In this document: positions 35,955-49,084 of the stretch, piece by piece
Numbering within the stretch: the first letter of the stretch is position 1
Layout of the letters: each line of letters begins with the position of its first letter
Source of the DNA: an uncultured Actinomycetota bacterium
Lineage (GTDB): Bacteria; Actinomycetota; Actinomycetes; Propionibacteriales; Propionibacteriaceae
Length of the DNA stretch: 64,000 nt
Assembly (NCBI GenBank): GCA_963780005.1
Contig: CAWAAK010000028.1
Span: forward strand, 37,730-101,729
Direction: 5' to 3'
Translations under genes and position numbers: made by a program
The notes under the pieces: model-generated
The model's database searches: none
The model's input: only the letters and a program-made list of their open reading frames with translations
Told to the model about the DNA's origin: nothing

Positions 35955-38900
35955 TCAGGCCAGCCGAGCCCGGACCCGGCCCTCCATGGCTTCCTGCAGC
36001 ACCGTGACCGTCTCCGGCGCCAGGTCCACCCCGAGTTGCCGCGCCTGCGCCGCGAGCTGGAGGGTGAGGCGCTCGACCTCGGCGCGGTTGCCGGCCTGGT
36101 CTTCGGTGCGGATCCGGGCGACCAGCAGCAGCTCGTCACCGGGGGCGGCGGCCAGGGCTCGGGCGGCGGCCCACCGGGCCAGGTCGATGTCGTCCTCCTC
36201 GAGGGCCCGCCGGGCCAACTCGGCACCGATGTCGCGGACGGCGGAGATCATGTCGGTGCGCAACTCTTCGGCCCAGTGCCACTGTCCTGGAGCGGCGTCG
36301 GCCAGCGGTGCGCCGCGAACCAGCTCCAGCGCGGACCGCAACGCGGTGGTGCCGGCCTGGTTGACGCCGTGGGCGGTGAAGATCTGCAAGCGCTGCCAAT
36401 CCGAACTGACCGCGTTGTGCAGCTGGATCCGCCCGGAGTAGGCGTCCGGCAGGAAGGCGGAGCCGTCGTCGGCGGTGCCGAGCCACGTGCGGAGCCGGCT
36501 CATATTGGAGCGACGAGTGCCTTCGGCGACGACGAGGGACACCGCCATCCGGTGCGCCGTCGCGCCAGGGTTCTCCAGCAGCCAGCCGCAGTACTCCAGG
36601 CACTGCCGGGTGGCCCGGCTGGGCGCCGGGCCGGCCGCGCCGATGAGATCGATCGGGCCGAGCAGCCGCAGGGTGGGGTGCAGGGCGATCCTGTCGTCCC
36701 CGGCCCCGAAGTCCATTTCGCCTGTTTCCCCTTCCGTCCGTGTGGCCCAACCGCCGAGTCGATGAAGTTTTGTTGACGGCCCGAGATAGGTCACGTTGTC
36801 CGGCGGTGGAGCCGGATCCGGTGCGGGCCACCACGGCGCCGGGGTGGTCTGCTCGCTGCCGGTCGCGGCCACGAGTTCCACGAGGGCGGCGGCGGCCGGG
36901 GCCTCGATCAGCTGTGGCTTCAAGATCACCCCGGCCGGTTCGAGCGCGGCGCTCGGCTGCGCAAGCTCGGGTCCGGGCGGTTCGAGGATCAAGCTCCACT
37001 CGTGCTCCGCGGCCCGGGCGCCCGGCAGCACGGCCGCCATGGTCACCCGGGGCCGGCGGCTGAGCAGGTCCCGCAGTCGTTCGTCCTGGGCGGCGGCCAA
37101 GGGCTTGTTGATCAAAACGATCTCGGGCGCCCACGGGTCGGCCAGGTCGGGATCGACTCGGTGCTGCCCGGGAATCTCGTACGACTGCTGCTCCCGCTGC
37201 ACGGCGGCCCGAGCCTCGAGCCGGTCCAGCAGCGCGTCGACGTCGTCGGTGCTGGTCACGTTGTGCCGGCCGAGCGCCGCCGGCAGCTGCGGGAGCGTCC
37301 CCACCAACGTCAAGATCATTTCCTCGGCCCACGGGGAGAAGGACAGTTCGAGCGCCATGGCCGTGAGCGCGGCCTCGACCAGGGCCGGGTCCTCAGCGTG
37401 CAGCCGCAGCAGACCCAGCGTTTCCAAGTCACCGACGACTGGTCGGCCCGCCTCGTCCTGGCCCAGGGTCACCAGCGCCGGAAAGGGACGGGCGGCTTCG
37501 CCGAGACCGGGCACCGTCTTGAGGTAGCCGACATCGGCGGCGTCGAGCAGCCAGCGCGATCCGTCGGCCCGGAAACCCGGAGGTGCCTGAGGGGCCGGTT
37601 CGGTCCAGTGCAGCTCGAGGTGGTCATCGGACACGGTGGCGATGGTCAGGCAGGGCAGCGGACTGCGACCGTGGTGGCAGTGTGCGCCGATCGCCCGGGT
37701 GGCCAGATCCAGCGTGCGCAGCCCGAGCGGCCGGGCCCGGTGGCCCAGCACCACCTCGGCGGTGCGACCGGCCACGGGAGGGTGCAGGATCCGGCGACCC
37801 AGCGGCCGAGCCTGCAACTGCAGCCGGCGCCGCGCCGCCAGACCGGCGATCAACGAGGCAGAGAGCAGCGCGCCGGCCGCGGCCAAACCGGCCACGACCA
37901 GCTGAGTGTGGTCGCCGCTCGAGGTGCTCGAATCGGCACCATCGCGTGCCTTCGAGGTCTGGTCCGGCACCTGGGTCGGCGACGGCTCGGGCCCTGCTGG
38001 CGGCGATTCGGCCGGGGCGTTCTGGGGCGCCGAGGCAGGAGTCGTCGACTTGACCTTCGGCACGCCGGCCGTGCTGGTCCCGTCGCCGTTCTTCACGGGT
38101 TGGTCCTCTGGCTCGGTCTTGGCCCGGTCCTTCGACACGGCTTTCGTAGCGCGTGTCCGCGCTCCTGGGACGACGAGGCGCATGCCGATCAGCAGTTCGT
38201 CGGGATCGTCCAGTTGGAAGCGGTTGGCCCGCCACAACACCGGCCAGCGTCGTTCCGCGCCGTAGGCGCGCTGGGCAATGGCCGACAGGGTGTCGCCAGG
38301 CTGCACGACCACCGTTCGTTCGCCTTCGTCGCTGTCTGGCGCGGTTGCTGGTCCGGCCGCGCTTCCTCTCCCGATCGGAGTCGGGTTCCACGCCGGGGAT
38401 GCGCAGCTTCCAGCCCACGTCAAGCCGATCGGGCCCGCCACTGAGGCGGGACGGGTTGGCGGCGGCGATGCGGCGCCAGTCCGTACCCCGCCCGTAGTAA
38501 CGCTGAGCCAAGGACCACAGGTCATCACCGAGCTCGACAACATGCACGTGAACGTCGTCCCCCTTCGTTGTCCCGGGAGTGGCCGGCGTGGATGTCGCGG
38601 GGGGTTCCACCGCCCGTCGGGGGGGCTGAGCGGCAGCGGATGCAGGATCGTCGTCGAGGCGGGCCTCCGACGAGTGCGGGCTGATCGGCTCCGGCCGAGG
38701 CTCCCTCGGCGGTAGCTCCGCCGAGCTCAGTTGTGCCGTGCTCACCATGGCGATCACCGACACGAACAGGCCCGCCGCCAACCGCTGCGTCGCCGCCAAC
38801 CCCGGGACACCGGGCAGCCGAAGGCGTATTTGGCGGCCGGACACGAGTCCGACCAGTTCGCTGAGCGCGCCGAGCGTGAAGATCAACCAGGCCACCCACG

Positions 38901-39110
38901 CGACTCCGAAGAGGAGGGTGATCATGATGACGAGCGGGTCCGGGCCGGTCAGTAGCGCCAACGGATCGGACCACGCTGACAGCGCGGTCCAGAGTTGCCG
39001 GGTGAGCGCGAGCAGGAGCACCGGAACCCCGAACAGCCCGCCAGTCAGGGCGACGAGCGCGGCCAAGCCGCGGATCACCCGCATGGGCTGTCTTTCTCGG
39101 ACCGTGACAT
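35955..39110 (-). pseudogene. 4-TM membrane protein with two extracytoplasmic LysM domains and a cytoplasmic winged-helix + BTAD (SARP-like) C-terminus; about 1040 aa, one frameshift near 38330-38400 and possibly a second near the start
   Basis: N-terminal ORF: MRVIRGLAALVALTGGLFGVPVLLLAL..., two more TM helices, then LysM1 (HVVELGDDLWSLAQRYYGRGTDWRRIAAANP...GWKLRIP). After the frame change: LysM2 (VVVQPGDTLSAIAQRAYGAERRWPVLWRANR...GMRLVVP), a P/S/T linker, TM4 (LVVAGLAAAGALLSASLIAGLAA), and ~330 aa of unassigned sequence. Next comes LRLLGPIDLIGAAG...RATRQCLEYCGWLLENPGATAHRMAVSL...SRLRTWLG (wHTH), then the BTAD-like ...LELVRGAPLADA...WAEELR...LAAAPGDELLLVARIRTEDQAGNRAEVERL. The start is either ATG 39084 (MRVIRG) or the RBS-preceded ATG 39110, which is 1 nt out of frame. 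Confidence 0.7.
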
Positions 39111-39173
39111 GCGGCCCTCCTTCTCGCCTGGGCTCACCCTGACGGTCCGCCGAGGGGCGCGCCAGCGCTGAGT

Positions 39174-39200
39174 TGTTGTCGGTCGGCCTGAGGTGTTGTC
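39174..39200 (-). promoter_or_regulatory. two GACAACA heptamers 20 nt apart (minus-strand sense) upstream of the LysM/BTAD gene
   Basis: The minus strand reads GCGGACAACACCTCAGGCCGACCGACAACAACTCAG. The extended matches GCGGACAACACC and CGACCGACAACA recur at 46587-46650. Confidence 0.4.
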
Positions 39201-39203
39201 CGC

Positions 39204-40104
39204 TCATCCGGCCGGGCCCAGCAGGAGCGTCAACAGGGCAGCGACCAGGAAGATCAAACCGAAGATCAACGCCGGCAGTGTCATGTAGACCGTCATGCCT
39301 TCGGCGGCGGCGCTGGCCAGCAGGCGTTCCTTGGTCAGGTGCGCGTCCCGCAGTTCCTTGACCCGCGCCCGGAGGGTGCCCGACAGGGCCGCACCGGTTT
39401 CGTCCAGCTGCATCACGTCGGCGACATCATTCAGTTCCGGCAGGTCGAGCTGCTCGGCCAACCGCCGCAACTCACCGTACGGGGACTGCTGCTCGAGCCG
39501 CGCGCGTTCGAGGGCTATCCGGATCTGGCGGAACAGGGGGGCATCGCTCAGCTCGGCCGCCTGTTGGAGGGCCGAGGTGGCCGAGGCGTTGGCCAGCCGC
39601 TCCAGGGTGACCAGATCCAGGAAGACGAGTAGCGCCTCCACCGCGCTGGAGCGGGAGGCGCGCGCCGTCCGGCGCAGCAGCAGATCCGGGGCGAAGTATC
39701 CGGTCACCGCGCCGAGCAGGGCCAGCGCGGCCGGCCAGGCCGACGTACGGCCGGTGAGCAGCAGATAGCCGAAGCTCGACGGCGGTAGGGATCGCCGCCC
39801 CTACCACCGCCATCACGATCTTGTCGGCGTAGAACTCGGCCACCGACTTCCCCTGCAGCCGCAGGCTCTGGCGCTGTCGCTCGGTCAGCGGGATCGGGGA
39901 GTGTCGGAAGAGCCACGCGCCGAGCCGCTCCGAGGGGCTGCCTGCCATGGTGAGCTCGACGGGGTTCGAGGCGGAACCCGGCTCGCCGAAAACCCGCTGC
40001 AGCGCGGGTTCCAGCTTCGGCGGCGTGGGCACCAACGCCGCTGTGATGATCACCACACCTCCGGCGATCAGCAGTCCGGTGACCATGATCAACATCGGCG
40101 TCAT
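39204..40104 (-). pseudogene. tadC: Flp pilus assembly inner-membrane protein TadC (T2SS F-domain), one frameshift near 39778-39785
   Basis: MTPMLIMVTGLLIAGGVVIITAAL... then a frame change ...SSFGYLLLTGRTSAWPAALALLGAVTGYFAPDLLLRR...ELRRLAEQLDLPELNDVADVMQ...TVYMTLPALIFGLIFLVAALL. ATGA overlaps at both ends. Confidence 0.75.
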
Positions 40105-40971
40105 CGCCGGGCTCCGACCAGGATCCGTTCCCGCGGTGTCTGCTGAGCCTTGCGTCGCAGCAGGATGAGCGAGCCGAGATAGAGCACCACCAACACGGAC
40201 AGGATCAGCTGCCCGAGAGGCGTGCCGTACCCGGCGAAGAAGCTGGGTGACAGCACAAAGACCCCGCCCAGGGTGACCAGGCTGATGATCGTGACCTGTC
40301 GGACCACCACGTACGGCTTCGCCCGCTCGGTCTCGATCAGCCGTCGCCCCTTCAATTGATCTTGGATCGAATCGGCCAGGGCGGACAGGGTCATGCGAGG
40401 CGCCATTGGCACCGCGCCGTGCCGCCAAGATCAATGCCGCCACCACTCCATCGGCGTCGGGTGAGTCCAGTGCGTCCGCGAAGCTGCGCAGGGCATCGGC
40501 GGTATCCCAACGATTGTTCAGTCGATCGACCAGCCGGCCCACCTCGGGCAGCAACCGTGCCGGGGCGGTACGGCGCGAGATCCGGATGGCGTCAGTGACC
40601 GAACGGCCGGTGGTCATCGACGCCGCCAGCGCCCGGACCCAGCGGTCGAGGTCCTCCAGCAGTTCGACGTCTCGGGCTTTCGGCAGGACGAGCAGGTACG
40701 GCAACCCGATCGCCAGGATGGGAGCAGCCACGACGGCGACCGCCCACCCGGACAGCCCGGCCACGATCAGGCCGACGACCACACTGACGACGATCCGCAG
40801 ATCGCGGTTCCGGCCCGTGCGGCCCGGCGGGCGGCGGGTCAACCGAGCCCAGCACTCCGCCACAGATTCGCTCCGCCGAGTGCGGGTTGGCCACCCTCGG
40901 GACCAACCTGCAACGGCAAGCACCGCGCCGCCGACCAGCAGCACTCCCGCCACGACCGCGACCGCGGTCAT
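40101..40971 (-). pseudogene. tadB: Flp pilus assembly inner-membrane protein TadB, one frameshift near 40400-40420
   Basis: MTAVAVVAGVLLVGGAVLAVAGW...LPYLLVLPKARDVELLEDLDRWVRALAASMTTGRSVTDAIRIS... then a frame change ...TLSALADSIQDQLKGRRLIETERAKPYVVVRQVTIISLVTLGGVFVL. Confidence 0.75.
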
Positions 40972-42492
40972 GATGGACTCCCCGGCGCCAGCAGCTGAGC
41001 GGACTCTGGTAGGGCGCGGGCGAAGGGCAACAGTTCGGCTTCGAAGTCGGCGTCCGGGGTGAATCCCGCGGGCGCGGTGCGCGACCCCGTAGCCGAGTAG
41101 GTCAGGTGGGTTACCGGCCGACCATTCTCCAGCGCCCCGGTCGCCTGACGGATCTCGGAGATGTAGCGGCGACGGACTCCGCCCTTCCACGTTTCGTCCA
41201 CCAGGCGGACGTAGATGAACAAGGCGATGTTGTGCGCCACCTGGCGGTAGGCCTCGTCGATGGTCAACACTCCGCCCTGCGCGACCCGGGACGCCAACCG
41301 ATCGATCGTGGAGTCGGCAGAGTGTGAGTGGGTGGTGCTCATGGTGCCGGTGCCGGCCTGCATGGCTTCGAACATGGCGGCGGCTTCTCCGCCGCGGACC
41401 TCCCCGACGATGAGCCGGGAAAGGTTCTGCCGCAACGCTTCGGGCATCAGGTCGCTGATGGTGAACTCACCGACCCGACTGCCGCCGTTCGTTTCGCCGT
41501 GGCCGACCCGGGACTGCAGGGCAAGGATGTTCTCCCGGCCCGGCTGCAGGTGGGTCATCAGTTCGTAGTCGGTCTCGAGGGTGCCGAACCGTTCAGTGGC
41601 GGGGATCGCGTGGATCAGGGCTCGCAGCAAAGTGGTCTTGCCTGCGCCTTGATCGCCGGCGATCACCATCGACTTGCGAGCCAGCACAGCGGCGTCGAGG
41701 AATTGCGCCACCTCGGCCGGCATCAGTCCGCCGGCCACCAGGTCGGTGAGGGAGACGTCGGTGAGGATGTGTTGCCGGATCACCACACTCGGCCGGTACG
41801 ACAATCCGAAACCCATGGCGTGCAGGCGGAACCGTTCCCCGAGCGCCAAGGTGATGGTCGGGTGGGTGTCGTCGAACGGTCGCGACGGCTCCCCGTTCTG
41901 GCCGAGGAAACGGATCGCGTCGATCAGTTCGAGCGTCGCTGTCGGCGACCGGCGGCCGCTGCTCACGCCGCCCGTCGCCGTACTGGACCACGACCGAGTC
42001 GCACCCGGAGATCTCGATGTTCTCCACGTCGGGCAGCTCCAGCAGCGGTTGCAGCCGGCCGTAGCCGAAGACGGCGTTCTCCACTGCCTCGACGAACTGC
42101 TCCTCCTGCGCCCGCGACCACAGATCGGCCCCTTCCCGGTGCAGGGTTCGAACGTGATCGCCGACCACGCGGCGGATGACCGCCCGACCGAGAAGGACCC
42201 GATCGTCGGCGTGCATAGCCCGCCCCGTGCGAGTCGACTCGGACGCCCCCTCTTCGGTGATCAGTGCGGACGCCTGCCGTCGGAGCTCGACCACCGTCGG
42301 CCAGTCGACGAGCGACGGCGCCAGGCGCACTCCGAACTCGGCGACCTCTGGAGCCGTGAACGTGGTCCGCGGCGTGCTGTCGGCGCGCCCGCTTGTGTCG
42401 GCGGGTGCCTTGTCGAGTTCGCCGAGCAGGGGGACGTCCGCCAAGGACGCCTCGGCCGTCGGGTCGGCTTGGTCCGCGTGGAGGTCGGTCAT
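40968..42492 (-). pseudogene. tadA: CpaF/TadA secretion ATPase, one frameshift near 41931-41950
   Basis: The N-terminal ORF runs to ...NIEISGCDSVVVQYGDGRREQRPPVADSD. The frame then changes to ELIDAIRFLG...VIAGDQGAGKTTLLRAL (Walker A)...RLIVGEVRGGEAAAMFEAMQAGTGTMSTTHS (Walker B/His box). Confidence 0.85.
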
Positions 42493-43278
42493 GATCGGCC
42501 ACCGATCAGCTCGGCATGCAGTTCCAACCGATCCGAGAGATCGGTCGCCGTCGTGTGCAGTGCCCGGGCGAAGGCCGACGTATCGAATCTGCGGGCCCGA
42601 TCGCGGCCATCGGAGAGATGTCCGGCCGACGACGGATCCCACGGGATGGTTCCCGTCACGCGCACGGCCAATGCCCGGCCGATCTCCCGAGCGGAATAGG
42701 GCCTGCCTTCACCGACCACGATCAGGCCCAGGCGGCTGTCGCCTGCGTGGTTTCGGCGGTCCTCCACCAGAACCGGCAGGTGCACTTGCGCCGATACCAC
42801 CGCACGCAGGTCCGAGCGGACGACCAGTCCGGTGAAGGCCGCCGCATCCGCCAGTGGAGCGGGCAGGCCGCGGGGTCCGAGCCGGCCCGCATCGACCACC
42901 ACGTCGACGCCGATGTCCCCCAAGGCGTCGAAGGCGGCGACGAGATCCGCCCAGACACCAGCGAAGATGGCGGCGCTACCGGGACGGTTGAAGCCGGGCA
43001 GGAAGTGCCGCTGATGATCACCAGTCGGTGACCAGCGGCAGCGTCTGGTCGAGGATCACCTCGGTGAGCGGTCGGCGATCGCGGTGTGCCTCAGCGACTC
43101 GCAGCAAACCCTTGCCGTCCGAGCTCTGCCCGGCCAGGAATCCGGCCAGCACGGCTTGGTGGGCGCCTGGATCACAGTCGGCGAGCACCACCGACCGCGG
43201 CCAGGCGAGCGCCAATCCTACGGCGAGGGTCGTGACTCCGGGAGCACCGGAGACCGATCCGAGGACGACGATGGCCAT
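42489..43278 (-). pseudogene. tadZ: TadZ/CpaE-like ParA-fold protein with a degenerate Walker A, one frameshift near 43015-43025
   Basis: MAIVVLGSVSGAPGVTTLAVGLALAW has no Walker lysine. ...PLVTD / frame change / HFLPGFNRPGSAAIF...DVVVDAGRLGP...TGLVVRSDLRAVVSAQ...IPWDPSSAG. Confidence 0.7.
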
Positions 43279-43285
43279 GATCAAC

Positions 43286-43429
43286 TCACCCTGCTCGCCG
43301 CAGGGGCCTGAGCTCGCTGCGCTCGCACCCTCTTCACCCTGCTCGCCGCAGGGGCCTGAGCTCGCTGCGCTCGCACCCTCTTCACCCTGCTCGCCGCAGG
43401 GGCCTGAGCTCGCTGCGCTCGCACGCCGT
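43286..43429. repeat. three tandem 48-bp repeats filling the cpaB-tadZ intergenic gap
   Basis: Units lie at 43286-43333, 43334-43381 and 43382-43429. The first two are identical and the third diverges in its last ~8 nt. Each contains the hairpin CCCTGC-TCGCC-GCAGGG. The core recurs at 35239. Confidence 0.9.
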
Positions 43430-44158
43430 TCACCGATCGGCGTCACGGACGAGGGACAGGCGATCTTGGGCCGCCAACAGCGCGATCACCGGAGCCTGGT
43501 CGCTGCCCACGTCGACATTGACCAGGATCGAGGCGGCGTCCGGTCCTGGTTGTTGATCAACGACCCGGGCGGCGAAGGTCTTGCCCGCATACTCGTCGCG
43601 ATATCCGGGCTCGGCGTTGCCCGGGGGCACGGAGATCAACCGCACCGAGGAGCCGGGCAACAGATGATTGCTTGGAGCCCGGCCGGCCGTTAGCTTGATC
43701 CCGACCAACGCCCGTTTGTCCAGTGGGATCTTGCTCGGCGCGATCGCTCCTTGCGGCAGGACCGACCCTTCGATGAGGTCATACTGCGCCCGCTGCCCGA
43801 CCAACTGCGTCCGCTCGGCGGCCGGAACCGTCCGGATGCCCGGATCCCCGCTCAGGGTCACCGTGGTGAGATCCGATGCGGCCACGGTCTGCCCCCGATA
43901 GACCGTGTGGGCGAGGCCGACCACGGCGGTCTCCGTTGCCACCCGGGCGTAGATGAGGTACGAGAGCAGCCCTCCGATACAGATGGCGACGACTCCGAGA
44001 GCGATCCACTTCGGGTTGCGCCGGCCGGGGAGTCGCGGCGGCCCAGGGGTGGCCGGCGACGATTGCTGATCTTCCACCGGCCGGTGTCGGGGACTCAGTC
44101 GCCGGAACAGACCCGAGGTGCGCTCGGCGCGGGGGTGTGGTTCGGTCTCGATGCTCAT
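43430..44158 (-). CDS. cpaB: Flp pilus assembly protein CpaB/RcpC-like (SAF domain)
   Basis: MSIETEP...a single TM (WIALGVVAICIGGLLSYLIYA), then ...VVGLAHTVYRGQTVAASDLT...LVGQRAQYDLIEGSVL. Confidence 0.7.
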   Translation of the reverse strand: MSIETEPHPRAERTSGLFRRLSPRHRPVEDQQSSPATPGPPRLPGRRNPKWIALGVVAICIGGLLSYLIYARVATETAVVGLAHTVYRGQTVAASDLTTVTLSGDPGIRTVPAAERTQLVGQRAQYDLIEGSVLPQGAIAPSKIPLDKRALVGIKLTAGRAPSNHLLPGSSVRLISVPPGNAEPGYRDEYAGKTFAARVVDQQPGPDAASILVNVDVGSDQAPVIALLAAQDRLSLVRDADR

Positions 44159-44210
44159 GCGGTTCCCGAGGTGAGTAGGGGCGCCGCAGCGCGTGGCGGC
44201 GGAGTGATCA

Positions 44211-44624
44211 TCAGCGGCCTCCGGACGGGACCAACTCGGCTGCGGCCGACCCACGCGCCGAGACCGATCGGATACCGATGATCGCCAGGAAGATCGTGGG
44301 TTCCGTGGTGGCGGTGTCCACGGTCACTACGCCGTTGGAGACGCCGACGGTACCGGTCACACCGGGTTGGCCGCCCAAATAGGTACGCGCGGCGAGCACC
44401 GCAGCCCCTGCTGAACTGGAACCGCCCAGCGCTCCGGTGGCCCGAGCATTGGCGGCCACTCGCGCTGCACCCGCAGCGGCGACCTCGGCCCGGGTGGCGG
44501 CGGCGATCTGCTGTCCGCCATCGACGACCAATCCGGCGGCCATGATCATCGCGGCGAAGACGACGCAGAGAAAGACGCTGACGGCCTGTCCTCGTTCGTC
44601 CTGCGGCCGGGTCGTGGGTTTCAC
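44211..44624 (-). CDS. TadE/TadG-like pseudopilin (pilus assembly protein)
   Basis: DERGQAVSVFLCVVFAAMIMAAGLVVDGGQ is a TadG-type N-terminus. ATGA-coupled upstream. Confidence 0.65.
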   Translation of the reverse strand: MKPTTRPQDERGQAVSVFLCVVFAAMIMAAGLVVDGGQQIAAATRAEVAAAGAARVAANARATGALGGSSSAGAAVLAARTYLGGQPGVTGTVGVSNGVVTVDTATTEPTIFLAIIGIRSVSARGSAAAELVPSGGR

Positions 44625-45058
44625 GTCCGGCCCCGATAGGTGTCCAGGGCTGACGATCCGCTTTCCCTCAGGGTGATGCTGCCGGGCATGCCAGGCAGAA
44701 CGAGATCGGCGAAGGCTACGGAGCAGGTCACCGTTGCGCGAATCGTGGCCGGAGTGCCGACGGTGACTCTGAAACCGCTGGTGTCGACGTCGACGGCGCC
44801 GGCGGAACAGCGCAGACCGGCGGTGTCCAGCGAGCGCGCGGCGGCTCGTTCGCCGTCGCCACCCGCCTGACCGGGGGTACGAGCGAGGGAGCCAGCCCGG
44901 GCGGCGGCGTAGGCCGACTCCGTCACCGAAGCCCGGGCGAACCAGAGCCGGCCGCCCGCCACCATCAGGGCAAGCATGATCACCAGCGCGGGGACAGCCA
45001 AGGTCAACTCGACGGCGGCGGAGCCCCGGTCGTCGCGCGGCTTACGCGGGCTGATCAT
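44621..45058 (-). CDS. tadE: TadE-family pseudopilin
   Basis: DDRGSAAVELTLAVPALVIMLALMVAGGRLW is the TadE motif. Start and stop both overlap their neighbours (ATGA). Confidence 0.7.
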   Translation of the reverse strand: MISPRKPRDDRGSAAVELTLAVPALVIMLALMVAGGRLWFARASVTESAYAAARAGSLARTPGQAGGDGERAAARSLDTAGLRCSAGAVDVDTSGFRVTVGTPATIRATVTCSVAFADLVLPGMPGSITLRESGSSALDTYRGRT

Positions 45059-45441
45059 GGGTCGCTGAAGACTTCGCGGGGTGCGGCCGCGGATTCGGTG
45101 ATCCGCCCAAGCGGAAGATCGAGGATCGTCGGTGTCGTGCCCGACACCACGACCCGGACCTGCGCGCCGGACATGTCCACCCCGACCTCGACTGAACGCA
45201 GTCCGGCCGACGCCGCGATCTTGGTAGCCAGATCGTCGGCGGCCGCGGCCGAACCGGCGCTGCCGCTGGCGACATCGGCGGCCGCGATGGCGGCCCGCAA
45301 AGCAGCCTGGCGACCGTGGATCCAAATCCCCGCCTGGATGATCCCCAGAGTGACCAGCAGCAGCAACGGCCAGATCAGCGCGAGTTGAACCGATTCGCTG
45401 GTCCCTCGCTCGTTTCGAGCCAGGGAGACGGCCGGGATCAA
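45055..45441 (-). CDS. tadE: TadE-family pseudopilin
   Basis: NERGTSESVQLALIWPLLLLVTLGIIQAGIW. Confidence 0.7.
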   Translation of the reverse strand: MIPAVSLARNERGTSESVQLALIWPLLLLVTLGIIQAGIWIHGRQAALRAAIAAADVASGSAGSAAAADDLATKIAASAGLRSVEVGVDMSGAQVRVVVSGTTPTILDLPLGRITESAAAPREVFSDP

Positions 45442-45620
45442 CGCGGCAGACGACTCTGGACGAAGGCGGTGATGGCGGCGATGATGCCGAGGGCGATGGT
45501 GACCGCTCCCGCCAGCAGGATGGCGTTCTCGGCCGATTGACTGAGTCCTCGTTGATCGCGCGCTGCCGGAGTGCGGAGGAAGACCAGGACGCCGACGAGG
45601 CAGTGAAGGAGGCGGATCAT
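45438..45620 (-). CDS. flp: Flp-family type IVb prepilin (60 aa)
   Basis: Leader MIRLLHCLVGVLVFLRTPAARDQRG, then LSQSAENAILLAGAVTIALGIIAAITAFV (G/xxxxE processing-site type). Confidence 0.8.
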   Translation of the reverse strand: MIRLLHCLVGVLVFLRTPAARDQRGLSQSAENAILLAGAVTIALGIIAAITAFVQSRLPR

Positions 45621-45803
45621 GTCATCGTGACTCTCTGCGAGGGGATCGGATGTCGGGGCAAAGGGGCTGTTCGGTCAGACGCCGGGTCACCTTCGCACAA
45701 CCCGACCCGTGTCGGATAGTCCCGATCCAGCCTGATCGATGGCCTCTTTAGGACATGGCAGCTTCCTGACTCATACGGCCGGAAAACGAACGAATTAAGG
45801 GAT

Positions 45804-46541
45804 TCATGCTGCCTCGGCAATGGCTGCTGCCGACCGGGCCATTCGGCGTAGGGCCCAGCTGCATCGATAGCGCACCATCGCGGGGGTGGTGTGATGGCGG
45901 AGGGCGGCGTACCGTCCGGACGCGCCGTCGACGTACACCGTGTGCAGCAGGGCGGCGGTGGCCTGATCGATCACGCCGATCACGCGCGCGGTGGCGATCA
46001 CCCGGCCGGCGTCCCGGCAGGCCGCGAAGCCGTTGTGGTCCAGGACTTCGGAGTCTGTCCGCCGGTGCAGCACGTGCTCCCAGGTGGACTCCGACCAGGA
46101 TCCAGCACTCACCTCCAACCGGCGGGTGGACAAGCGGCCCAGGACGTCCTTGCGGGTATCCCAGGCGAGGTTGGCGGCGATCCGCCGGGGCCGCCGCGTC
46201 AGCGGGTAGCTGCGGATGCGACACCACAGCGCGGACACGAAGTCGTCAACGGCGACGCCCGGATTGGCCTGGGAGAGGCGGACCACCTTGCCCAGCATGG
46301 TCTGCAGCACGACCCGCCCGGCCAGCGTGTCGCCGTCCAGGACGAGGGCCACGAGAGCGCCGAGCACCGGGTCCGGGTCGGCGCAGATCTCGTCCAACAC
46401 GTCGGCCAGATCCGTGCAACGCGAGAGGGCGGGACGGGTCGCCGCCCATCCGGCCACTCGGCTCTGGTCACCTTCGACCAGGCGTTGCCACTCTGCGTTC
46501 AACCCGTCGATGAGCGCGTATCGCGATGACTGCTGCGGCAC
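45804..46541 (-). CDS. hypothetical protein at the head of the tad cluster, weakly sigma-70/ECF-like (tentative)
   Basis: GTG at 46541 with a GGAGG RBS 7 nt upstream. DDFVSALWCRIRSYPLTRRPRRIAANLAWDTRKDVL resembles sigma region 2. AALRHHTTPAMVRYRCSWALRRMA resembles the region 4 HTH. No strong motif, so only the ORF call itself is confident. Confidence 0.35.
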   Translation of the reverse strand: MPQQSSRYALIDGLNAEWQRLVEGDQSRVAGWAATRPALSRCTDLADVLDEICADPDPVLGALVALVLDGDTLAGRVVLQTMLGKVVRLSQANPGVAVDDFVSALWCRIRSYPLTRRPRRIAANLAWDTRKDVLGRLSTRRLEVSAGSWSESTWEHVLHRRTDSEVLDHNGFAACRDAGRVIATARVIGVIDQATAALLHTVYVDGASGRYAALRHHTTPAMVRYRCSWALRRMARSAAAIAEAA

Positions 46542-46586
46542 GATGGGGCCTCCTCGACTCGGGTCGAGACGAGCCTGCCGGGAAGG

Positions 46587-46646
46587 TGTTGTCCGCATTG
46601 TTGTCCGACACCCAGCGGGTGTCGTCGCTCAGCTGGAGGTGTTGTC
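46587..46646 (-). promoter_or_regulatory. array of four direct GAC(A/G)ACA heptamers spaced 20, 21 and 12 nt (minus-strand sense), 45-105 nt upstream of the first tad-cluster gene
   Basis: Plus-strand TGTTGTC at 46587, 46599 and 46640; TGTCGTC at 46620. CAGGCT lies 9 nt downstream of the proximal repeat on the minus strand. Confidence 0.45.
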
Positions 46647-46680
46647 GGTCGTACTCACGCTCGATGAATCTCGGTGAACC

Positions 46681-47376
46681 TCAGGGGCGCAGGACACGGC
46701 GGGTGACCAGTTCCCCGCGGGCGTAGCGGCCGATCTCATGGGTGGCGATCCCGTCCATCACCGCACCGACCCCGCCGCCGAGCAGTGGCACCCGGCGGGT
46801 GATCGCGAGCGCGAAGCTCTTGCCGCCGACGCGGGCGAAGAGGTCACCCAGCACCTCTTCGGCAACCGTCTTGTCCAGCTGGGGGTCGAACACGGGCGCG
46901 GTGGCCACCGCCAGGGGCGAGGTCGGCAGCTTGCCCTGCACGATGCGCTTGCCCACCTGCTCCCCGCCCAGCAGGCACATGATCAGCGCCGTACGGACGC
47001 GGTTGTCGTCGAGGTCGTAGCCGCGCAGGTGCGCCAGCGCCGCCACCATCCGGGTCTGCACCACCGCGACCCCGGCCACGTTGGCGGGCAGGGTCACCGG
47101 CAGGGCCGCCACCCCGCCGAGATTGGTGGCGAAGCCCTGGGCGGACGCCAGGCCGACATGGAAATCGATGATTCCGTCGATCGCGCCGTCGGCGGAACCG
47201 GCGTGCTTCTGCAGCTGCCGGCCGGCACTGGCCTTCGCACTGGGCAACCAGCCGGTGCCGTCGATGGCCAGCTCCAGCACCCTGCGGAGGACTCCGCCGG
47301 CGGCCCCCGGGGCGTATCGGGTCGCGACCGAGGTGCCCCGGGCGAACAACTTGCCGACGTCTTGGGCTGACGGCAT
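46681..47376 (-). CDS. EcsC-family protein
   Basis: 231 aa from MPSAQDVGKLF...IIDFHVGLASAQGFATNLGGVAALPVTLPANVAGVAVVQTRMVAALAHLRGYDLDD. The longer track ORF (to 48426) is antisense read-through over aat. Confidence 0.6.
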   Translation of the reverse strand: MPSAQDVGKLFARGTSVATRYAPGAAGGVLRRVLELAIDGTGWLPSAKASAGRQLQKHAGSADGAIDGIIDFHVGLASAQGFATNLGGVAALPVTLPANVAGVAVVQTRMVAALAHLRGYDLDDNRVRTALIMCLLGGEQVGKRIVQGKLPTSPLAVATAPVFDPQLDKTVAEEVLGDLFARVGGKSFALAITRRVPLLGGGVGAVMDGIATHEIGRYARGELVTRRVLRP

Positions 47377-47547
47377 CGTGCTCCCTTCCACCCATCGACT
47401 TAACACGGCTCGACCCGCCCCGCCGGTGCGGCGAGATGGTGCGCGTGCTGGCCAGCCTATGTGGCCCGTGGTGGCCGACCGAGTGGCCGCGACCCCGGCC
47501 GCACCCCGAGCGGTCCCTGAACGGCGCCGGGGCGGAAGACTGCAGGC

Positions 47548-48213
47548 GTGGTCGAGTCGACGTTCGGGCCGCCGGAGCGGTGGCGACCCAGTGATCTGAT
47601 CGCGGTGTCGCGCGAGTTCGACGCCGATCTGGTCCGGGGGGCGTACCGCGCCGGGGTGTTCCCGATGCCGATCCGGCGCGGGGTTATGGGCTGGTTCTCG
47701 CCGCTGCGCCGGGGCATCCTGCCGCTGGACCGACTCCGGGTGAGTCGATCGCTCCGCAAGATGACCGGCCGGTACCGCATCACCGTCGACACCGCGTTCG
47801 ACAAGGTGCTGGCGGCCTGTGCGGACCGACGCCGTCCGGGCGCCTGGATCGACACGCGGATCTCGACGGTCTATCAGGAGCTGCACCGCGACCACGTGGT
47901 GCATTCGATGGAGGCCTGGACGTCCGACGGACGACTCGCCGGCGGCCTGTACGGGGTCAGCATCGGCGGCCTGTTCGCCGGCGAGTCGATGTTCCACGAT
48001 CCCGAGGTGGGCCGGGACGCGTCGAAGGTGGCCCTGATGGCCCTGGTCGAGCGGTTGCGCACGGCCGACGGCGAGGATCGGCTGCTGGACGTCCAGTGGC
48101 AGACGCCGCACCTGGCCTCGCTCGGCGTGGTCGAGATCAGCCGGTCGACGTACCTGCGCCGACTCGAGAAAGCGTTGACTATGCCCACCCCCGACTGGAT
48201 CAGCCACCGATAA
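47548..48213 (+). CDS. aat: leucyl/phenylalanyl-tRNA--protein transferase
   Basis: GAYRAGVFPMP...GWFSP..RGILPLD...VHSMEAW...LAGGLYGVSIGGLFAGESMFH...DASKVALMALV. Confidence 0.85.
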   Translation: MVESTFGPPERWRPSDLIAVSREFDADLVRGAYRAGVFPMPIRRGVMGWFSPLRRGILPLDRLRVSRSLRKMTGRYRITVDTAFDKVLAACADRRRPGAWIDTRISTVYQELHRDHVVHSMEAWTSDGRLAGGLYGVSIGGLFAGESMFHDPEVGRDASKVALMALVERLRTADGEDRLLDVQWQTPHLASLGVVEISRSTYLRRLEKALTMPTPDWISHR

Positions 48214-48220
48214 TGGGCCC

Positions 48221-49084
48221 ATGCCCGAGATGCCTGAGGTGGAGTCGCTCGCCCGGTTCCTGACCGAGAAATGCGTCGGGCACACGATCGCGCGGATCGA
48301 GTTGCTGGCCTTCAGCGCCCTGAAGACGTACGACCCGCCGCTGTCGGCTCTCGAGGGCCTGGAGATCGACGGGGTGAGCAGGCACGGCAAGTTCCTCGAC
48401 ATCTCGGCCCAGGGCGTGCATCTCATCTTTCATCTGGCCCGGGCGGGTTGGCTGCGCTGGCGGGACCAGCTGCCGGCTGCCCCCGGCAAGCCCGGGCGGG
48501 GGCCCCAGACCCTGCGGCTCCGGCTGGACGACGATTCCGGTTTCGACCTCACCGAGGCCGGCACCCAGCGGAAGCTGGCGGTCTACGTGGTGTACGACCC
48601 GGACGCCGTTCCCCACATCGCGACGCTTGGTCCAGATCCGCTGTCGGAGGAGTTCGACGAGGACGCGCTCGCGGCCCTGCTGCGGCGGTTGGGTCGCGCT
48701 CAACTCAAGGGGGTGCTGCGGGATCAGAAGAACATCGCCGGGATCGGTAACGCCTATTCCGACGAGATCCTGCATGCGGCCAGGCTGAGCCCGTTCAAGG
48801 CGGCCAACAGCCTCAGTCCCGAGGAGCTCGCGACCCTGTACGCCGCCATCCGGGGCGAGTTGGCCGGGGCCATCGAGCGTGCGAAGGGCCTGGCGGCGTC
48901 GGACCTGAAGGGCGAGAAGAAGTCCGGGATGAGGGTGCACGGCCGGAAGGGCTTGCCCTGCCCGGTGTGCGGGGACACGGTCGCCGAGGTGTCCTTCCAC
49001 GATTCCTCACTGCAGTACTGCCCGACCTGCCAGACCGGCGGCAAGAAGCTCGCCGATCGCCGGCTGTCCCGGCTGCTGAAGTAG
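48221..49084 (+). CDS. nei: Fpg/Nei-family DNA glycosylase / AP lyase
   Basis: MPEMPEVES with N-terminal catalytic Pro2/Glu3. H2TH segment LRDQKNIAGIGNAYSDEILHAARL. Zinc finger CPVCG...CPTCQ. Confidence 0.85.
   Translation: MPEMPEVESLARFLTEKCVGHTIARIELLAFSALKTYDPPLSALEGLEIDGVSRHGKFLDISAQGVHLIFHLARAGWLRWRDQLPAAPGKPGRGPQTLRLRLDDDSGFDLTEAGTQRKLAVYVVYDPDAVPHIATLGPDPLSEEFDEDALAALLRRLGRAQLKGVLRDQKNIAGIGNAYSDEILHAARLSPFKAANSLSPEELATLYAAIRGELAGAIERAKGLAASDLKGEKKSGMRVHGRKGLPCPVCGDTVAEVSFHDSSLQYCPTCQTGGKKLADRRLSRLLK

What the first reader, a model, noticed from the sequence alone, without database searches (positions are those of the whole stretch)
46587..46646. Helically phased GAC(A/G)ACA heptamer array upstream of the first tad-cluster gene (SARP-type operator geometry)
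Read on the minus strand, four direct heptamers (GACAACA, GACGACA, GACAACA, GACAACA) start 20, 21 and 12 nt apart. That is roughly two, two and one helical turns.
- They lie 45-105 nt upstream of the RBS-supported GTG at 46541.
- A CAGGCT hexamer lies 9 nt downstream of the proximal repeat, close to the heptamer-to-(-10) geometry of SARP-activated promoters.
- The motif is T/A-rich in a 70% GC genome. By my composition estimate only a few copies are expected in the whole window, and I noticed only about three others, all in coding sequence.
- The only protein in the window with a SARP-like DNA-binding module is encoded by the same cluster.
Basis: partly seen in the sequence, partly recalled or inferred. 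Interest (0 to 1): 0.62.

Follow-up and report, generated by a model that had tools for sequence, protein, structure and literature searches.

The report
Conserved repeat operator before sigma gene
Four evenly phased copies of the short DNA word GACAACA, followed by a promoter -10 box, sit in front of a sigma-factor-like gene that heads a pilus (tad) gene cluster; the same layout recurs across a whole bacterial family, so it is a real, undescribed on-switch that is probably read by a membrane-anchored SARP-like activator encoded in the same cluster.

Summary
On the minus strand, GACAACA/GACGACA/GACAACA/GACAACA start at 46646, 46626, 46605 and 46593 (spacing 20, 21, 12), followed 9 nt later by CAGGCT. 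No such cluster arose in 300 simulated windows.

The gene downstream is not a tad structural gene. It is a divergent sigma-70-like factor.

In 80 related Propionibacteriaceae loci, where the sigma proteins are only about 40% identical, the array is conserved:
- 76 of 79 loci carry the heptamer.
- Spacings peak at 12, 20 and 21.
- 58 loci share the 12-nt proximal pair.
- The hexamer 9 nt downstream has A-11 and T-7 in 58 of 58.
- In 18 loci an ATG lies exactly at the predicted start (leaderless mRNA), which fixes the promoter.

The repeat units fall at about -30..-20, -42..-32, -63..-53 and -83..-73. This is within 1 bp of the AfsR (SARP) box geometry.

A two-copy version lies before the cluster's LysM membrane-protein gene (39200-39174). 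The C-terminal 242 aa of that protein fold like the AfsR/EmbR SARP domain.

Which protein binds the repeats is not proven. In 26 loci the sigma gene and array have no SARP gene within 10 kb. I judge this a new variant of a known kind.

The parts
46638..46648 (-). Repeat A (distal): 11-mer CCGACAACACC with heptamer GACAACA at 46646-46640, at about -83..-73
   Evidence: (PWM 16.7 bits)
46618..46628 (-). Repeat B: GCGACGACACC with heptamer GACGACA at 46626-46620, at about -63..-53. The close relative L001 has GACAACA here.
   Evidence: (8.8 bits)
46606..46624 (.). Perfect 8-bp palindrome CGACACCC-gct-GGGTGTCG overlapping repeat B. A partial ACACC...GGTGT inverted copy recurs in some relatives. 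Its role is unknown.
46597..46607 (-). Repeat C: TCGGACAACAA with heptamer at 46605-46599, at about -42..-32. It overlaps the place where a -35 element would lie.
   Evidence: (13.9 bits)
46585..46595 (-). Repeat D (proximal): GCGGACAACACC with heptamer at 46593-46587, at about -30..-20, 12 nt after repeat C
   Evidence: (18.9 bits)
46572..46577 (-). -10 hexamer CAGGCT, 9 nt after heptamer D. The equivalent position has A-11 and T-7 in 58 of 58 anchored loci and G-14 in 50 of 58.
46564..46565 (-). Predicted transcription start. This is inferred from 18 relatives in which an ATG lies 6-7 nt after the conserved T. It has not been measured.
45804..46541 (-). Sigma-70-like gene (245 aa, GTG start, RBS GAGGAGG at 46555-46549). 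It is the gene the array controls and the first gene of the cluster.
39172..39202 (-). Second operator: GACAACACCT-N10-GACAACAACT (heptamers at 39200-39194 and 39180-39174, spacing 20), between the TadC-like gene and the LysM/SARP-like gene
39136..39141 (-). -10-like hexamer CAGGGT, 32 nt after the second heptamer. The same 31-32 nt offset occurs in 15 of 18 loci (33 nt in L001).
35955..39084 (-). LysM membrane protein gene with a SARP-fold C-terminal module (36683-35958). In this window it is read in two frames, with the shift near 38330-38370.

Best explanation
The array is the operator of an activator-dependent promoter that drives the sigma-like gene at the head of the tad pilus cluster.

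Shown by comparison of sequences:
- Four head-to-tail copies of cgGACAACACC lie at about -83, -63, -42 and -30 (5' ends of the 11-mers).
- They are followed at a fixed distance by a -10 element (CAGGCT here; consensus T-n-G-n-(C/G)-A-n-n-(C/G)-T).
- No -35 consensus is present. Repeat C occupies the -35 region.

Inferred:
- A winged-helix activator of the OmpR/SARP type binds one monomer per repeat on one face of the helix.
- The proximal pair (C and D) takes the place of the -35 element and contacts region 4 of the sigma in RNA polymerase, as AfsR does at the afsS promoter.
- The two upstream repeats, two helical turns apart, add cooperative binding.
- The most likely binder is the SARP-fold module at the cytoplasmic C-terminus of the cluster's own LysM membrane protein. 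That would make it a membrane-tethered, possibly cell-wall-sensing, one-component activator.
- This protein would switch on the sigma-like gene. It would also switch on its own gene, through the two-copy operator at 39200-39174. In relatives it would switch on the operon that follows the sigma gene. The sigma-like factor would then serve the pilus genes.
For: Conservation of the array:
- 76 of 79 related loci have GACAACA within 300 nt upstream of the sigma-like gene, although the proteins are only about 40% identical.
- The 11-mer PWM gives 275 hits in 16.6 kb of upstream sequence. Background is about 0.5 per kb per strand.
- Spacings between adjacent sites are 12 (58 times), 20 (46 times) and 21 (74 times).

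Promoter:
- 52 of 58 anchored loci have [CG]A..[GC]T exactly 9 nt after the proximal heptamer.
- A-11 and T-7 are invariant in 58 of 58.
- 18 loci have an ATG at the predicted +1 with no room for an RBS, so the mRNA is leaderless.

Same motif at other promoters of the cluster:
- Pairs 20 nt apart lie before the LysM gene in 18 loci, with a -10 hexamer 31-32 nt downstream in 15 of them.
- Four-copy arrays lie before the gene that follows sigma.
- At about -47 and -67 the motif cannot be a -35 element, so a separate DNA-binding protein is needed.

SARP rules (PMC10936776):
- Direct repeats, with the 3' repeat 8 bp from the -10.
- 11 or 22 bp between repeats.
- The afs box spans -40..-19.
- The afsS -10 is CACTGT.

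Candidate binder:
- The C-terminal 242 aa of the LysM protein give AfsR (8k60, 8hvr) and EmbR (2ff4, 2fez) as the six best Foldseek matches, with TM 0.57-0.62 over about 260 columns.
- Homologues are annotated as BTAD proteins in Kineococcus and Streptomyces plasmids and in the C. acnes plasmid (PMC3666418).

Other lineages:
- The C. acnes plasmid keeps GACAACG-21-GACAACA-12-GACAACA before its sigma-like gene.
- Kineococcus pKRAD01 keeps the layout (33, 12, with the -10 at the same offset) but uses CGGCAAG. That is the heptamer of the SARPs PimR, SanG and PolR.
Against: - 26 loci with at least 10 kb of downstream sequence have the sigma gene and the array but no tad or SARP-like gene within 10 kb on either side. 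The binder would then have to act in trans, and I could not check whole genomes.
- Pfam and PDB sequence searches find no wHTH or BTAD in the window's protein.
- The wHTH part of the model has pLDDT 40-60.
- The proximal spacing is 12, not the canonical 11.
- Canonical SARP domains are N-terminal and soluble.
- The recognition helix differs between the window (TRRSNMSRLR) and the C. acnes plasmid (TVRSIATHLR) although the motif is the same.
- The gene is frameshifted in this window.
- A Streptomyces plasmid with a LysM-SARP tad cluster showed no obvious array.
- There is no transcript or binding evidence. Only DNA metagenome runs hold this sequence.
Confidence: 0.5

Rival explanations
1. Autoregulation by the sigma-like protein itself. 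Its region-4-like helix-turn-helix reads the GACAACAC repeats, either as a -35 element (repeat C, with a spacer of about 19 bp) inside RNA polymerase or as a free multimeric DNA-binding protein. The array would then be the sigma's own positive-feedback promoter.
For: - The sigma-like gene is the only gene linked to the array in every context, including 26 stand-alone loci and all 3 real arrays found in an unbiased metagenome scan.
- Paralogues and distant homologues carry their own 12-nt-spaced repeats with different sequences. Examples are L065 GAGTGATC, Iamia CACGAC, and Kineococcus and Xylanimonas GGCAAG.
- ECF-type sigmas usually autoregulate (established knowledge).
- The region 4.2 helix VRxRCSRAxRRL is highly conserved.
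- The linker of about 40 aa between domains 2 and 4 could allow a longer spacer.
Against: - The geometry does not fit a sigma in holoenzyme. AAC of repeat D is 10 nt and AAC of repeat C is 22 nt from the -10 hexamer, whereas ECF promoters have 16-18.
- Repeats at -58 and -78, and the LysM-promoter pair at about -47 and -67, cannot be -35 elements.
- Invariant A-11 and T-7 are typical of housekeeping-type -10 recognition.
- The 4.2 helix is almost the same in Xylanimonas (VRKRCSRAV) and in Propionibacteriaceae (VRWRCSRAL) although the repeat sequence differs.
- In every tad-type cluster examined, a LysM-SARP paralogue co-varies with the motif as well.
Confidence: 0.25
2. The repeats are the operator of an unlinked regulator, for example an OmpR/PhoB-family response regulator encoded elsewhere. 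That regulator would control the sigma-like gene and the tad cluster as part of a larger regulon.
For: - Phased direct repeats overlapping the -35 region are typical of OmpR/PhoB/GlnR-type response regulators in actinobacteria (PHO boxes of 11-nt direct repeats, PMC2275107, listed).
- Stand-alone sigma loci show that the binder need not be encoded nearby.
Against: - Within the 1.4 Mb of related loci, clusters of the motif occur almost only before the sigma gene, before the gene after it and before the LysM-SARP gene.
- The motif changes together with the module in plasmid-borne and paralogous clusters. This argues for a module-encoded binder.
Confidence: 0.15
3. The array is not an operator. 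It could instead be a chance cluster, the terminator region of the upstream EcsC-like gene, an RNA element in a 5' leader, or iteron/centromere repeats of a mobile element.
For: - The palindrome at 46624-46606 could be a terminator hairpin for the upstream gene.
- Related modules sit on conjugative plasmids next to ParA genes and tandem repeats.
Against: - Chance is excluded.
- The upstream gene differs among loci, with EcsC in only 14 of 80, while the array stays with the sigma gene.
- There is no Rfam match, and the RNA fold is no better than shuffles (z = -0.07).
- The fixed offset to an invariant A-11/T-7 hexamer and to leaderless ATGs places the repeats upstream of the transcript.
- The terminator scan found nothing.
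Confidence: 0.05

Closest known systems
SARP operators (AfsR afs box at afsS; ActII-ORF4, DnrI and PimR heptamer repeats)
   Same: - Head-to-tail direct repeats with about 8 conserved bases per unit.
- The 3' repeat lies 8-9 bp from the -10.
- The proximal two units span about -42..-20, against -40..-19 for the afs box.
- They overlap a missing -35 element.
- Further repeats lie two helical turns away.
- The -10 is of the CAnnGT type, as in afsS (CACTGT).
- The Kineococcus version even uses the PimR heptamer CGGCAAG.
   Different: - The proximal spacing is 12, not 11, and upstream spacings are 21 and 20, not 22.
- Four copies is the commonest pattern (about half of the loci).
- The core is GACAACAC.
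- The target is a sigma-like gene and a pilus cluster in Propionibacteriaceae, not an antibiotic cluster.
- The candidate activator carries its SARP-fold module at the C-terminus of a LysM membrane protein.
ToxR/CadC/TcpP-type membrane-bound winged-helix activators (own knowledge)
   Same: A single membrane-spanning protein would couple an extracytoplasmic domain to a cytoplasmic OmpR-type DNA-binding domain. That domain would bind direct repeats near or over the -35 region.
   Different: - In ToxR-like proteins the DNA-binding domain is N-terminal and has no BTAD.
- Here the module is C-terminal and follows about 380 aa of unknown function.
- The outside part is two LysM domains.
- Nothing here has been tested experimentally.
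Autoregulated ECF sigma promoters (for example SigL TGAACC-N17-CGTgtc; own knowledge)
   Same: A conserved motif with an AAC core lies directly upstream of a divergent sigma gene. The sigma has region-2-like and region-4-like domains, and its region 4 is most similar to SigL and SigD of M. tuberculosis.
   Different: - There are four phased copies instead of one -35 element.
- The distances to the -10 (10 or 22 nt) do not fit the 16-18 nt ECF spacing.
- The -10 has invariant A-11 and T-7 rather than a CGT-type motif.
Tad locus of the Cutibacterium acnes plasmid pIMPLE-HL096PA1 (PMC3666418)
   Same: - The same module: a sigma-70-family gene first, then tad genes, with a LysM/BTAD protein after the TadG-related gene (two uncharacterised ORFs follow it).
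- The same repeat word and spacing before the sigma-like gene: GACAACG-21-GACAACA-12-GACAACA.
   Different: - It is plasmid-borne with a different gene order.
- The sigma-like protein is only 32% identical.
- The paper proposed sigma control of the locus but did not describe the repeats or any operator.

Membership tests
SARP-type operator/promoter | Direct (head-to-tail) repeats of a heptamer or 11-nt unit on one strand | tested here: met
   Four same-strand copies in the window. The 11-mer consensus is cgGACAACACC from 170-281 sites.
SARP-type operator/promoter | Adjacent repeats 11 or 22 bp apart (PMC10936776) | tested here: inconclusive
   The spacings are 12, 21 and 20 in the window, and 12 (58 times), 20 (46 times) and 21 (74 times) across loci. 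Spacing 11 occurs only twice and 22 three times. The sites are helically phased, but the spacings are not the canonical numbers.
SARP-type operator/promoter | 3' repeat about 8 bp upstream of the -10 element, with the repeats overlapping the -35 region | tested here: met
   The gap is 9 nt after the heptamer, or 8 nt after the conserved 8-mer GACAACAC, in the window and in 52 of 58 anchored loci. The -10 position is fixed by invariant A-11/T-7 and by 18 leaderless ATGs. The units lie at -30..-20 and -42..-32, against -29..-19 and -40..-30 for AfsR.
SARP-type operator/promoter | Bound and activated by a SARP protein | not testable with these tools
   No binding, reporter or transcript data are available. 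Only DNA metagenome runs hold the sequence.
SARP protein (OmpR-type wHTH plus BTAD) | Fold of the wHTH-BTAD module | tested here: met
   The AF2 model of the C-terminal 242 aa gives AfsR 8k60/8hvr and EmbR 2ff4/2fez as the six best Foldseek matches. E-values are 3e-4 to 2e-3, TM 0.57-0.62, over 258-266 columns. Caveat: pLDDT is 40-60 in the wHTH part.
SARP protein (OmpR-type wHTH plus BTAD) | Sequence match to Pfam Trans_reg_C / BTAD | tested here: not met
   There is no Pfam hit other than LysM at E up to 10, and no PDB sequence hit. However, homologues are annotated as BTAD by NCBI and by PMC3666418.
SARP protein (OmpR-type wHTH plus BTAD) | SARP domain at the N-terminus of a soluble protein | tested here: not met
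   The module is the last 242 aa of a protein of about 1050 aa. It follows hydrophobic segments and two LysM domains.
Sigma-70 family (ECF-like) factor, for the downstream gene | Region 2 and region 4 domains | tested here: met
   - A profile of 28 homologues hits region 4 of Mtb SigL and SigD (E = 2e-4).
- The AF2 model has pLDDT 89, and its Foldseek matches are almost all sigma factors (probability up to 0.99, weak E-values of 0.03-1).
- Some homologues carry PF08281 and are named sigma-24.
- The window protein itself has no Pfam or NCBIfam hit.
ECF sigma autoregulated promoter | One -35 (AAC) and one -10 (CGT-type) motif 16-18 nt apart | tested here: not met
   AAC of repeats D and C lies 10 and 22 nt from the -10 hexamer. 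CGTC after the hexamer is present in the window and a few relatives only.
Plasmid iterons / partition repeats | Repeats tied to a replication or partition gene rather than to a promoter | tested here: not met
   The array keeps a fixed offset to a -10 hexamer and to the start codon of the sigma-like gene, in chromosomal contigs of up to 4.1 Mb among the loci fetched.

The most novel reading that the evidence does not exclude
A self-contained three-part regulatory module controls Tad pili on actinobacterial chromosomes and conjugative plasmids, including the acne-associated C. acnes plasmid. Its parts are:
- a membrane-tethered LysM-SARP activator that senses the cell wall or the pilus assembly state;
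- a divergent sigma-like factor;
- a phased four-repeat operator whose word differs from module to module (GACAACA, CGGCAAG, GAGTGATC, CACGAC).

The SARP module would replace the -35 element and hand RNA polymerase to the promoter. This would be the first membrane-bound SARP and the first SARP circuit outside secondary metabolism that feeds a dedicated sigma factor.
Probability: 0.35. Interest if true: 0.75.

Novelty: new variant of a known kind. Interest (0 to 1): 0.62.

Why it matters
Tad (Flp) pili drive adhesion, biofilm formation and DNA uptake in many bacteria. How Gram-positive actinobacteria switch them on is largely unknown.

This work gives a precisely defined promoter/operator (repeat word, spacing, -10 element and predicted start) that is conserved across Propionibacteriaceae and on the Cutibacterium acnes plasmid. 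It also gives two concrete candidate regulators. The question becomes directly testable with gel shifts and reporters.

If the LysM-SARP protein is the binder, SARP-type "sigma adaptation" would extend from soluble antibiotic regulators to a membrane-anchored sensor. It would also give a set of orthogonal repeat-word/activator pairs. If the sigma-like protein is the binder, that would be an unusual way for a sigma-family protein to recognise a promoter.

Tried and rejected
- **Sigma-70 promoter and intrinsic terminator consensus scans of 46000-47200:** nothing found.
- **Rfam on 38800-47600 at E up to 1:** no match. The RNA fold of the intergenic region is no better than shuffles. I rejected the RNA-element reading.
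- **5' UTR hairpin next to the RBS:** it looked recurrent by eye, but folds of 32 predicted leaders were not better than shuffles (mean z = +0.57). I dropped it.
- **ECF-type reading (GACAAC-N16-CGTCT):** it fits the window and a few close relatives, but CGTC is not conserved. Rejected.
- **RNA-seq support:** only DNA metagenome runs hold the sequence. The C. acnes plasmid locus could not be sent to the run search.
- **Recognition-helix comparison across lineages with different repeat words, for both sigma region 4.2 and the SARP wHTH:** not decisive either way.
- **Streptomyces plasmid pRVR1 with a LysM-SARP tad cluster:** no obvious phased array upstream.
- **Metagenome scan for the C-D pair:** mostly chance matches in coding DNA.
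- **Literature searches for the motif, for tad/LysM/BTAD regulation and for membrane-anchored SARPs:** only the C. acnes plasmid annotation paper turned up.
- **Intergenic region between the sigma gene and flp:** no shared promoter motif was seen.

Full report
**1. The observation**

Read on the minus strand, the 139-nt intergenic region 46680-46542 contains four heptamers: GACAACA (46646-46640), GACGACA (46626-46620), GACAACA (46605-46599) and GACAACA (46593-46587). Their start-to-start spacing is 20, 21 and 12. CAGGCT (46577-46572) follows the last heptamer after 9 nt. GAGGAGG (46555-46549) and the GTG at 46541 follow.

GACAACA is over-represented in the window: 12 copies against 3.8 expected, and 0 of 100 shuffles reach 12. 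A same-strand cluster of four GACRACA within 60 nt never appeared in 300 Markov simulations.

Three details needed correction:
- The conserved unit is an 11-mer, c-g-GACAACA-C-C.
- A second pair with the same 20-nt spacing lies in another intergenic region of the same cluster, at 39200-39174.
- The downstream gene is not a tad gene.

**2. The neighbourhood**

- GC3 frame analysis shows that the long 581-aa ORF upstream is a composite. The real upstream gene is an EcsC-family gene (46681-47376, minus strand). It diverges from a leucyl/phenylalanyl-tRNA protein transferase gene (47548-48213, plus strand).
- Downstream of the array lies a 245-aa protein with no Pfam or NCBIfam hit.
  - It has 263 homologues, several named sigma-24 or carrying PF08281, almost all from Propionibacteriaceae.
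  - A profile of 28 homologues matches region 4 of M. tuberculosis SigL and SigD.
  - An AlphaFold2 model (pLDDT 89) gives sigma factors as essentially all its best Foldseek matches.
  - It is therefore a divergent sigma-70-family protein with an N-terminal extension of about 55 aa and a long linker between domains 2 and 4.
- After it come:
  - an Flp-like pilin;
  - three TadE/TadG-like genes;
  - a SAF/CpaB-like gene;
  - a TadZ-like gene;
  - the TadA ATPase;
  - TadB and TadC;
  - a large LysM protein gene.

**3. Conservation of the array**

A scan of one genome per species with the sigma alignment returned 80 loci from Microlunatus, Friedmanniella, Enemella, Propionicimonas, Micropruina, Propioniferax, Granulicoccus and many MAGs. 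Sigma identity in these loci is mostly 37-51%.

- 76 of the 79 loci that have upstream sequence carry GACAACA within 300 nt of the sigma gene.
- A PWM of the 11-mer gives 275 hits in 16.6 kb of upstream DNA. Background over the 1.38 Mb of loci is about 0.5 per kb per strand.
- Distances between adjacent sites are 12 (58 times), 20 (46 times), 21 (74 times) and 33 (11 times).
- The window's pattern [20,21,12] is shared by about 40 loci.
- Anchoring 58 sequences (57 related loci and the window) on the 12-nt pair gives this consensus: cggacAacaCc..g......cgGACAACAcCg..gg.g..tCGG.CAACACc.cgGaCAACACC.gcTcG.cAg.gTcg

**4. It is a promoter**

At the hexamer that starts 9 nt after the proximal heptamer, the second base is A in 58 of 58 loci and the sixth is T in 58 of 58. 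G two positions upstream of the hexamer occurs in 50 of 58, and 52 of 58 hexamers fit [CG]A..[GC]T.

In 18 loci the ATG of the sigma gene lies 6-7 nt after that T, with no room for a ribosome-binding site. These must be leaderless mRNAs. That fixes the T at -7 and the A at -11, the two bases that define a sigma-70-type -10 element (established knowledge).

In the window the -10 is CAGGCT, so the predicted start is about 46565 and the leader about 24 nt. This is an inference. No RNA data exist, because only DNA metagenome runs hold the sequence.

With this numbering the 11-mers lie at -30..-20 (D), -42..-32 (C), -63..-53 (B) and -83..-73 (A). There is no -35 consensus, and repeat C sits where it would be.

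**5. The same word at other promoters**

Clusters of the motif in the 80 loci fall in only three places:
- Before the sigma gene: 75 loci.
- Immediately after the sigma gene, before the next operon: four-copy arrays with the same [21,21,12] spacing plus -10 layout in L024, L028, L038, L052 and L056 and three-copy arrays in L011 and L026, several of them leaderless, and two-copy arrays before flp in L048, L062, L067 and L072.
- Between tadC and the LysM gene: a pair 20 nt apart in 17 of 18 loci (21 nt in L001), the window included. A CAnnGT or CAnnCT hexamer lies 31-32 nt downstream in 15 of the 18 (33 nt in L001).

At the LysM promoter the repeats are centred near -47 and -67. They therefore cannot act as a -35 element, and a separate DNA-binding protein is required there.

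**6. Who binds?**

The closest known geometry is that of SARP activators. The 3' repeat lies 8 bp from the -10, repeats are 11 or 22 bp apart, the afs box spans -40..-19 and overlaps a poor -35, and the afsS -10 is CACTGT (PMC10936776). The array here differs by 1 bp in the proximal spacing (12) and by 1-2 bp upstream (21, 20).

*For the LysM-SARP protein:*
- Its C-terminal 242 aa have no Pfam or PDB sequence match.
- They are very conserved, at 60-86% identity among more than 120 hits.
- Their AlphaFold2 model gives AfsR (8k60, 8hvr) and EmbR (2ff4, 2fez) as the six best Foldseek matches, with TM 0.57-0.62 over the whole module. The helical half of the model is confident, while the wHTH half is not.
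- Homologues are annotated as BTAD proteins on Kineococcus and Streptomyces plasmids and in the C. acnes plasmid paper.
- The protein has N-terminal hydrophobic segments, two LysM domains and a further hydrophobic segment followed by an Arg-rich stretch. About 600 aa follow, ending in the SARP-fold module. This fits an outside-LysM, inside-SARP topology, which I inferred by eye.

*Against it:*
- 26 loci with full flanks have the sigma gene and the array but no tad or SARP gene within 10 kb.
- The wHTH recognition helix differs between the window and the C. acnes plasmid although the word is the same.

*For the sigma-like protein:*
- It is the only constant neighbour of the array.
- Distant or paralogous sigma-like genes each have their own 12-nt-spaced repeats:
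  - CGGCAAG in Kineococcus pKRAD01, with the -10 at the identical offset;
  - GGGCAAG in Xylanimonas;
  - CACGAC in Iamia;
  - GAGTGATC in L065, a second cluster in the same MAG as L053.
- However, the tad-type clusters among these (Kineococcus pKRAD01 and L065) also carry their own LysM or BTAD paralogue, so this covariation does not separate the two candidates.

*My weighting:*
- The geometry (sites at -58, -78, -47 and -67, and invariant A-11/T-7) argues against reading by a sigma inside holoenzyme.
- CGGCAAG is a documented SARP heptamer, used by PimR, SanG and PolR (PMC5930380).
- On this evidence I put the LysM-SARP protein at about 0.5, the sigma-like protein at about 0.25, an unlinked regulator at about 0.15 and a non-operator reading at about 0.05.

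**7. Wider distribution**

- The C. acnes plasmid pIMPLE-HL096PA1 has the same module, and the LysM protein gene follows the TadG-related gene.
  - Its sigma-like protein is 32% identical to the window's.
  - GACAACG-21-GACAACA-12-GACAACA lies before that sigma-like gene.
  - The paper on this plasmid suggested sigma control of the Tad locus but described no operator (PMC3666418).
- The SARP-like module occurs on 195 actinobacterial plasmids in PLSDB.
- I found no paper describing the repeat word, the operator or a membrane-bound SARP.

**8. Verdict**

The finding is real and functional. It is a conserved activator-type operator fused to a -10-only promoter for a sigma-like gene, and its geometry is that of a SARP box. 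It is unproven as to the binder, and it was wrong about the identity of the downstream gene. I rate this a new variant of a known kind, with interest 0.62.

Noticed in passing
window 39075-39110 (minus strand): An 11-codon upstream ORF (MSRSEKDSPCG*) with its own RBS. Its stop overlaps the ATG (39084) of the LysM-SARP gene. A similar 10-11 codon ORF ending in C-G/A-stop occurs in L001, L023, L029, L035, L037, L046 and L053. This suggests translational coupling or a leader peptide.
   Followed up: partly
window about 38330-38370 (minus strand): The LysM-SARP gene changes reading frame here. The window differs by 2 nt from L001 in the linker between the two LysM domains. Relatives have one uninterrupted ORF of about 1050-1190 aa. 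This is either an assembly indel or a real frameshift/pseudogene.
   Followed up: partly
window 46681-48426: The 581-aa minus-strand ORF is a composite. Only 46681-47376 (EcsC-family, 231 aa) has coding GC3. A plus-strand leucyl/phenylalanyl-tRNA protein transferase gene occupies 47548-48213.
   Followed up: yes
window 46606-46624: A perfect 8-bp palindrome (CGACACCC gct GGGTGTCG) overlaps repeat B. Several relatives have a partial inverted copy (ACACC..GGTGT, or CAACACC ttc GGTGTTG in L014) at the same place. Its role is unknown.
   Followed up: partly
L083 12905-13400 (Kineococcus pKRAD01): About 41 tandem copies of a 12-nt unit, GCTCGCAC(G/C)CAG, lie between the sigma-like gene and a ParA gene. 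This may be a partition (centromere-like) site. The C. acnes plasmid has short 12-nt-spaced repeats at the equivalent place (L082 12831-12853).
   Followed up: no
L083 11800-11851; L086 1279-1297; L085 1402-1432; L065 about 9838-9857: Distant or paralogous sigma-like genes keep 12-nt-spaced direct repeats but use other words (CGGCAAG, GGGCAAG, CACGAC, GAGTGATC). In pKRAD01, CGGCAAG is also enriched (26 copies against 7.6 expected), and a 20-nt-spaced pair lies before another gene (L083 1655/1635, minus strand).
   Followed up: partly
L055, L057, L068, L069, L073, L078, L080 (about 50-70 nt upstream of the array): A conserved box, GAATTGTTAGAAA.GTGCAA (GAATTGTTCTTAGGCTGC in L073 and L078), lies upstream of the array, preceded by a further conserved stretch. 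A tRNA-Ala(TGC) gene lies 2.4-5.8 kb upstream of the sigma gene in five of these seven loci (none in L068 or L069) and also in L039 and L076. This may be another regulator site or the border of an integrated element.
   Followed up: no
window about 39200-46600: The tad cluster genes have lower third-position GC (below 0.85) than most flanking genes. The sigma-flp intergenic region (45804-45620) is markedly AT-richer. This hints at horizontal acquisition, in line with the plasmid-borne relatives.
   Followed up: no
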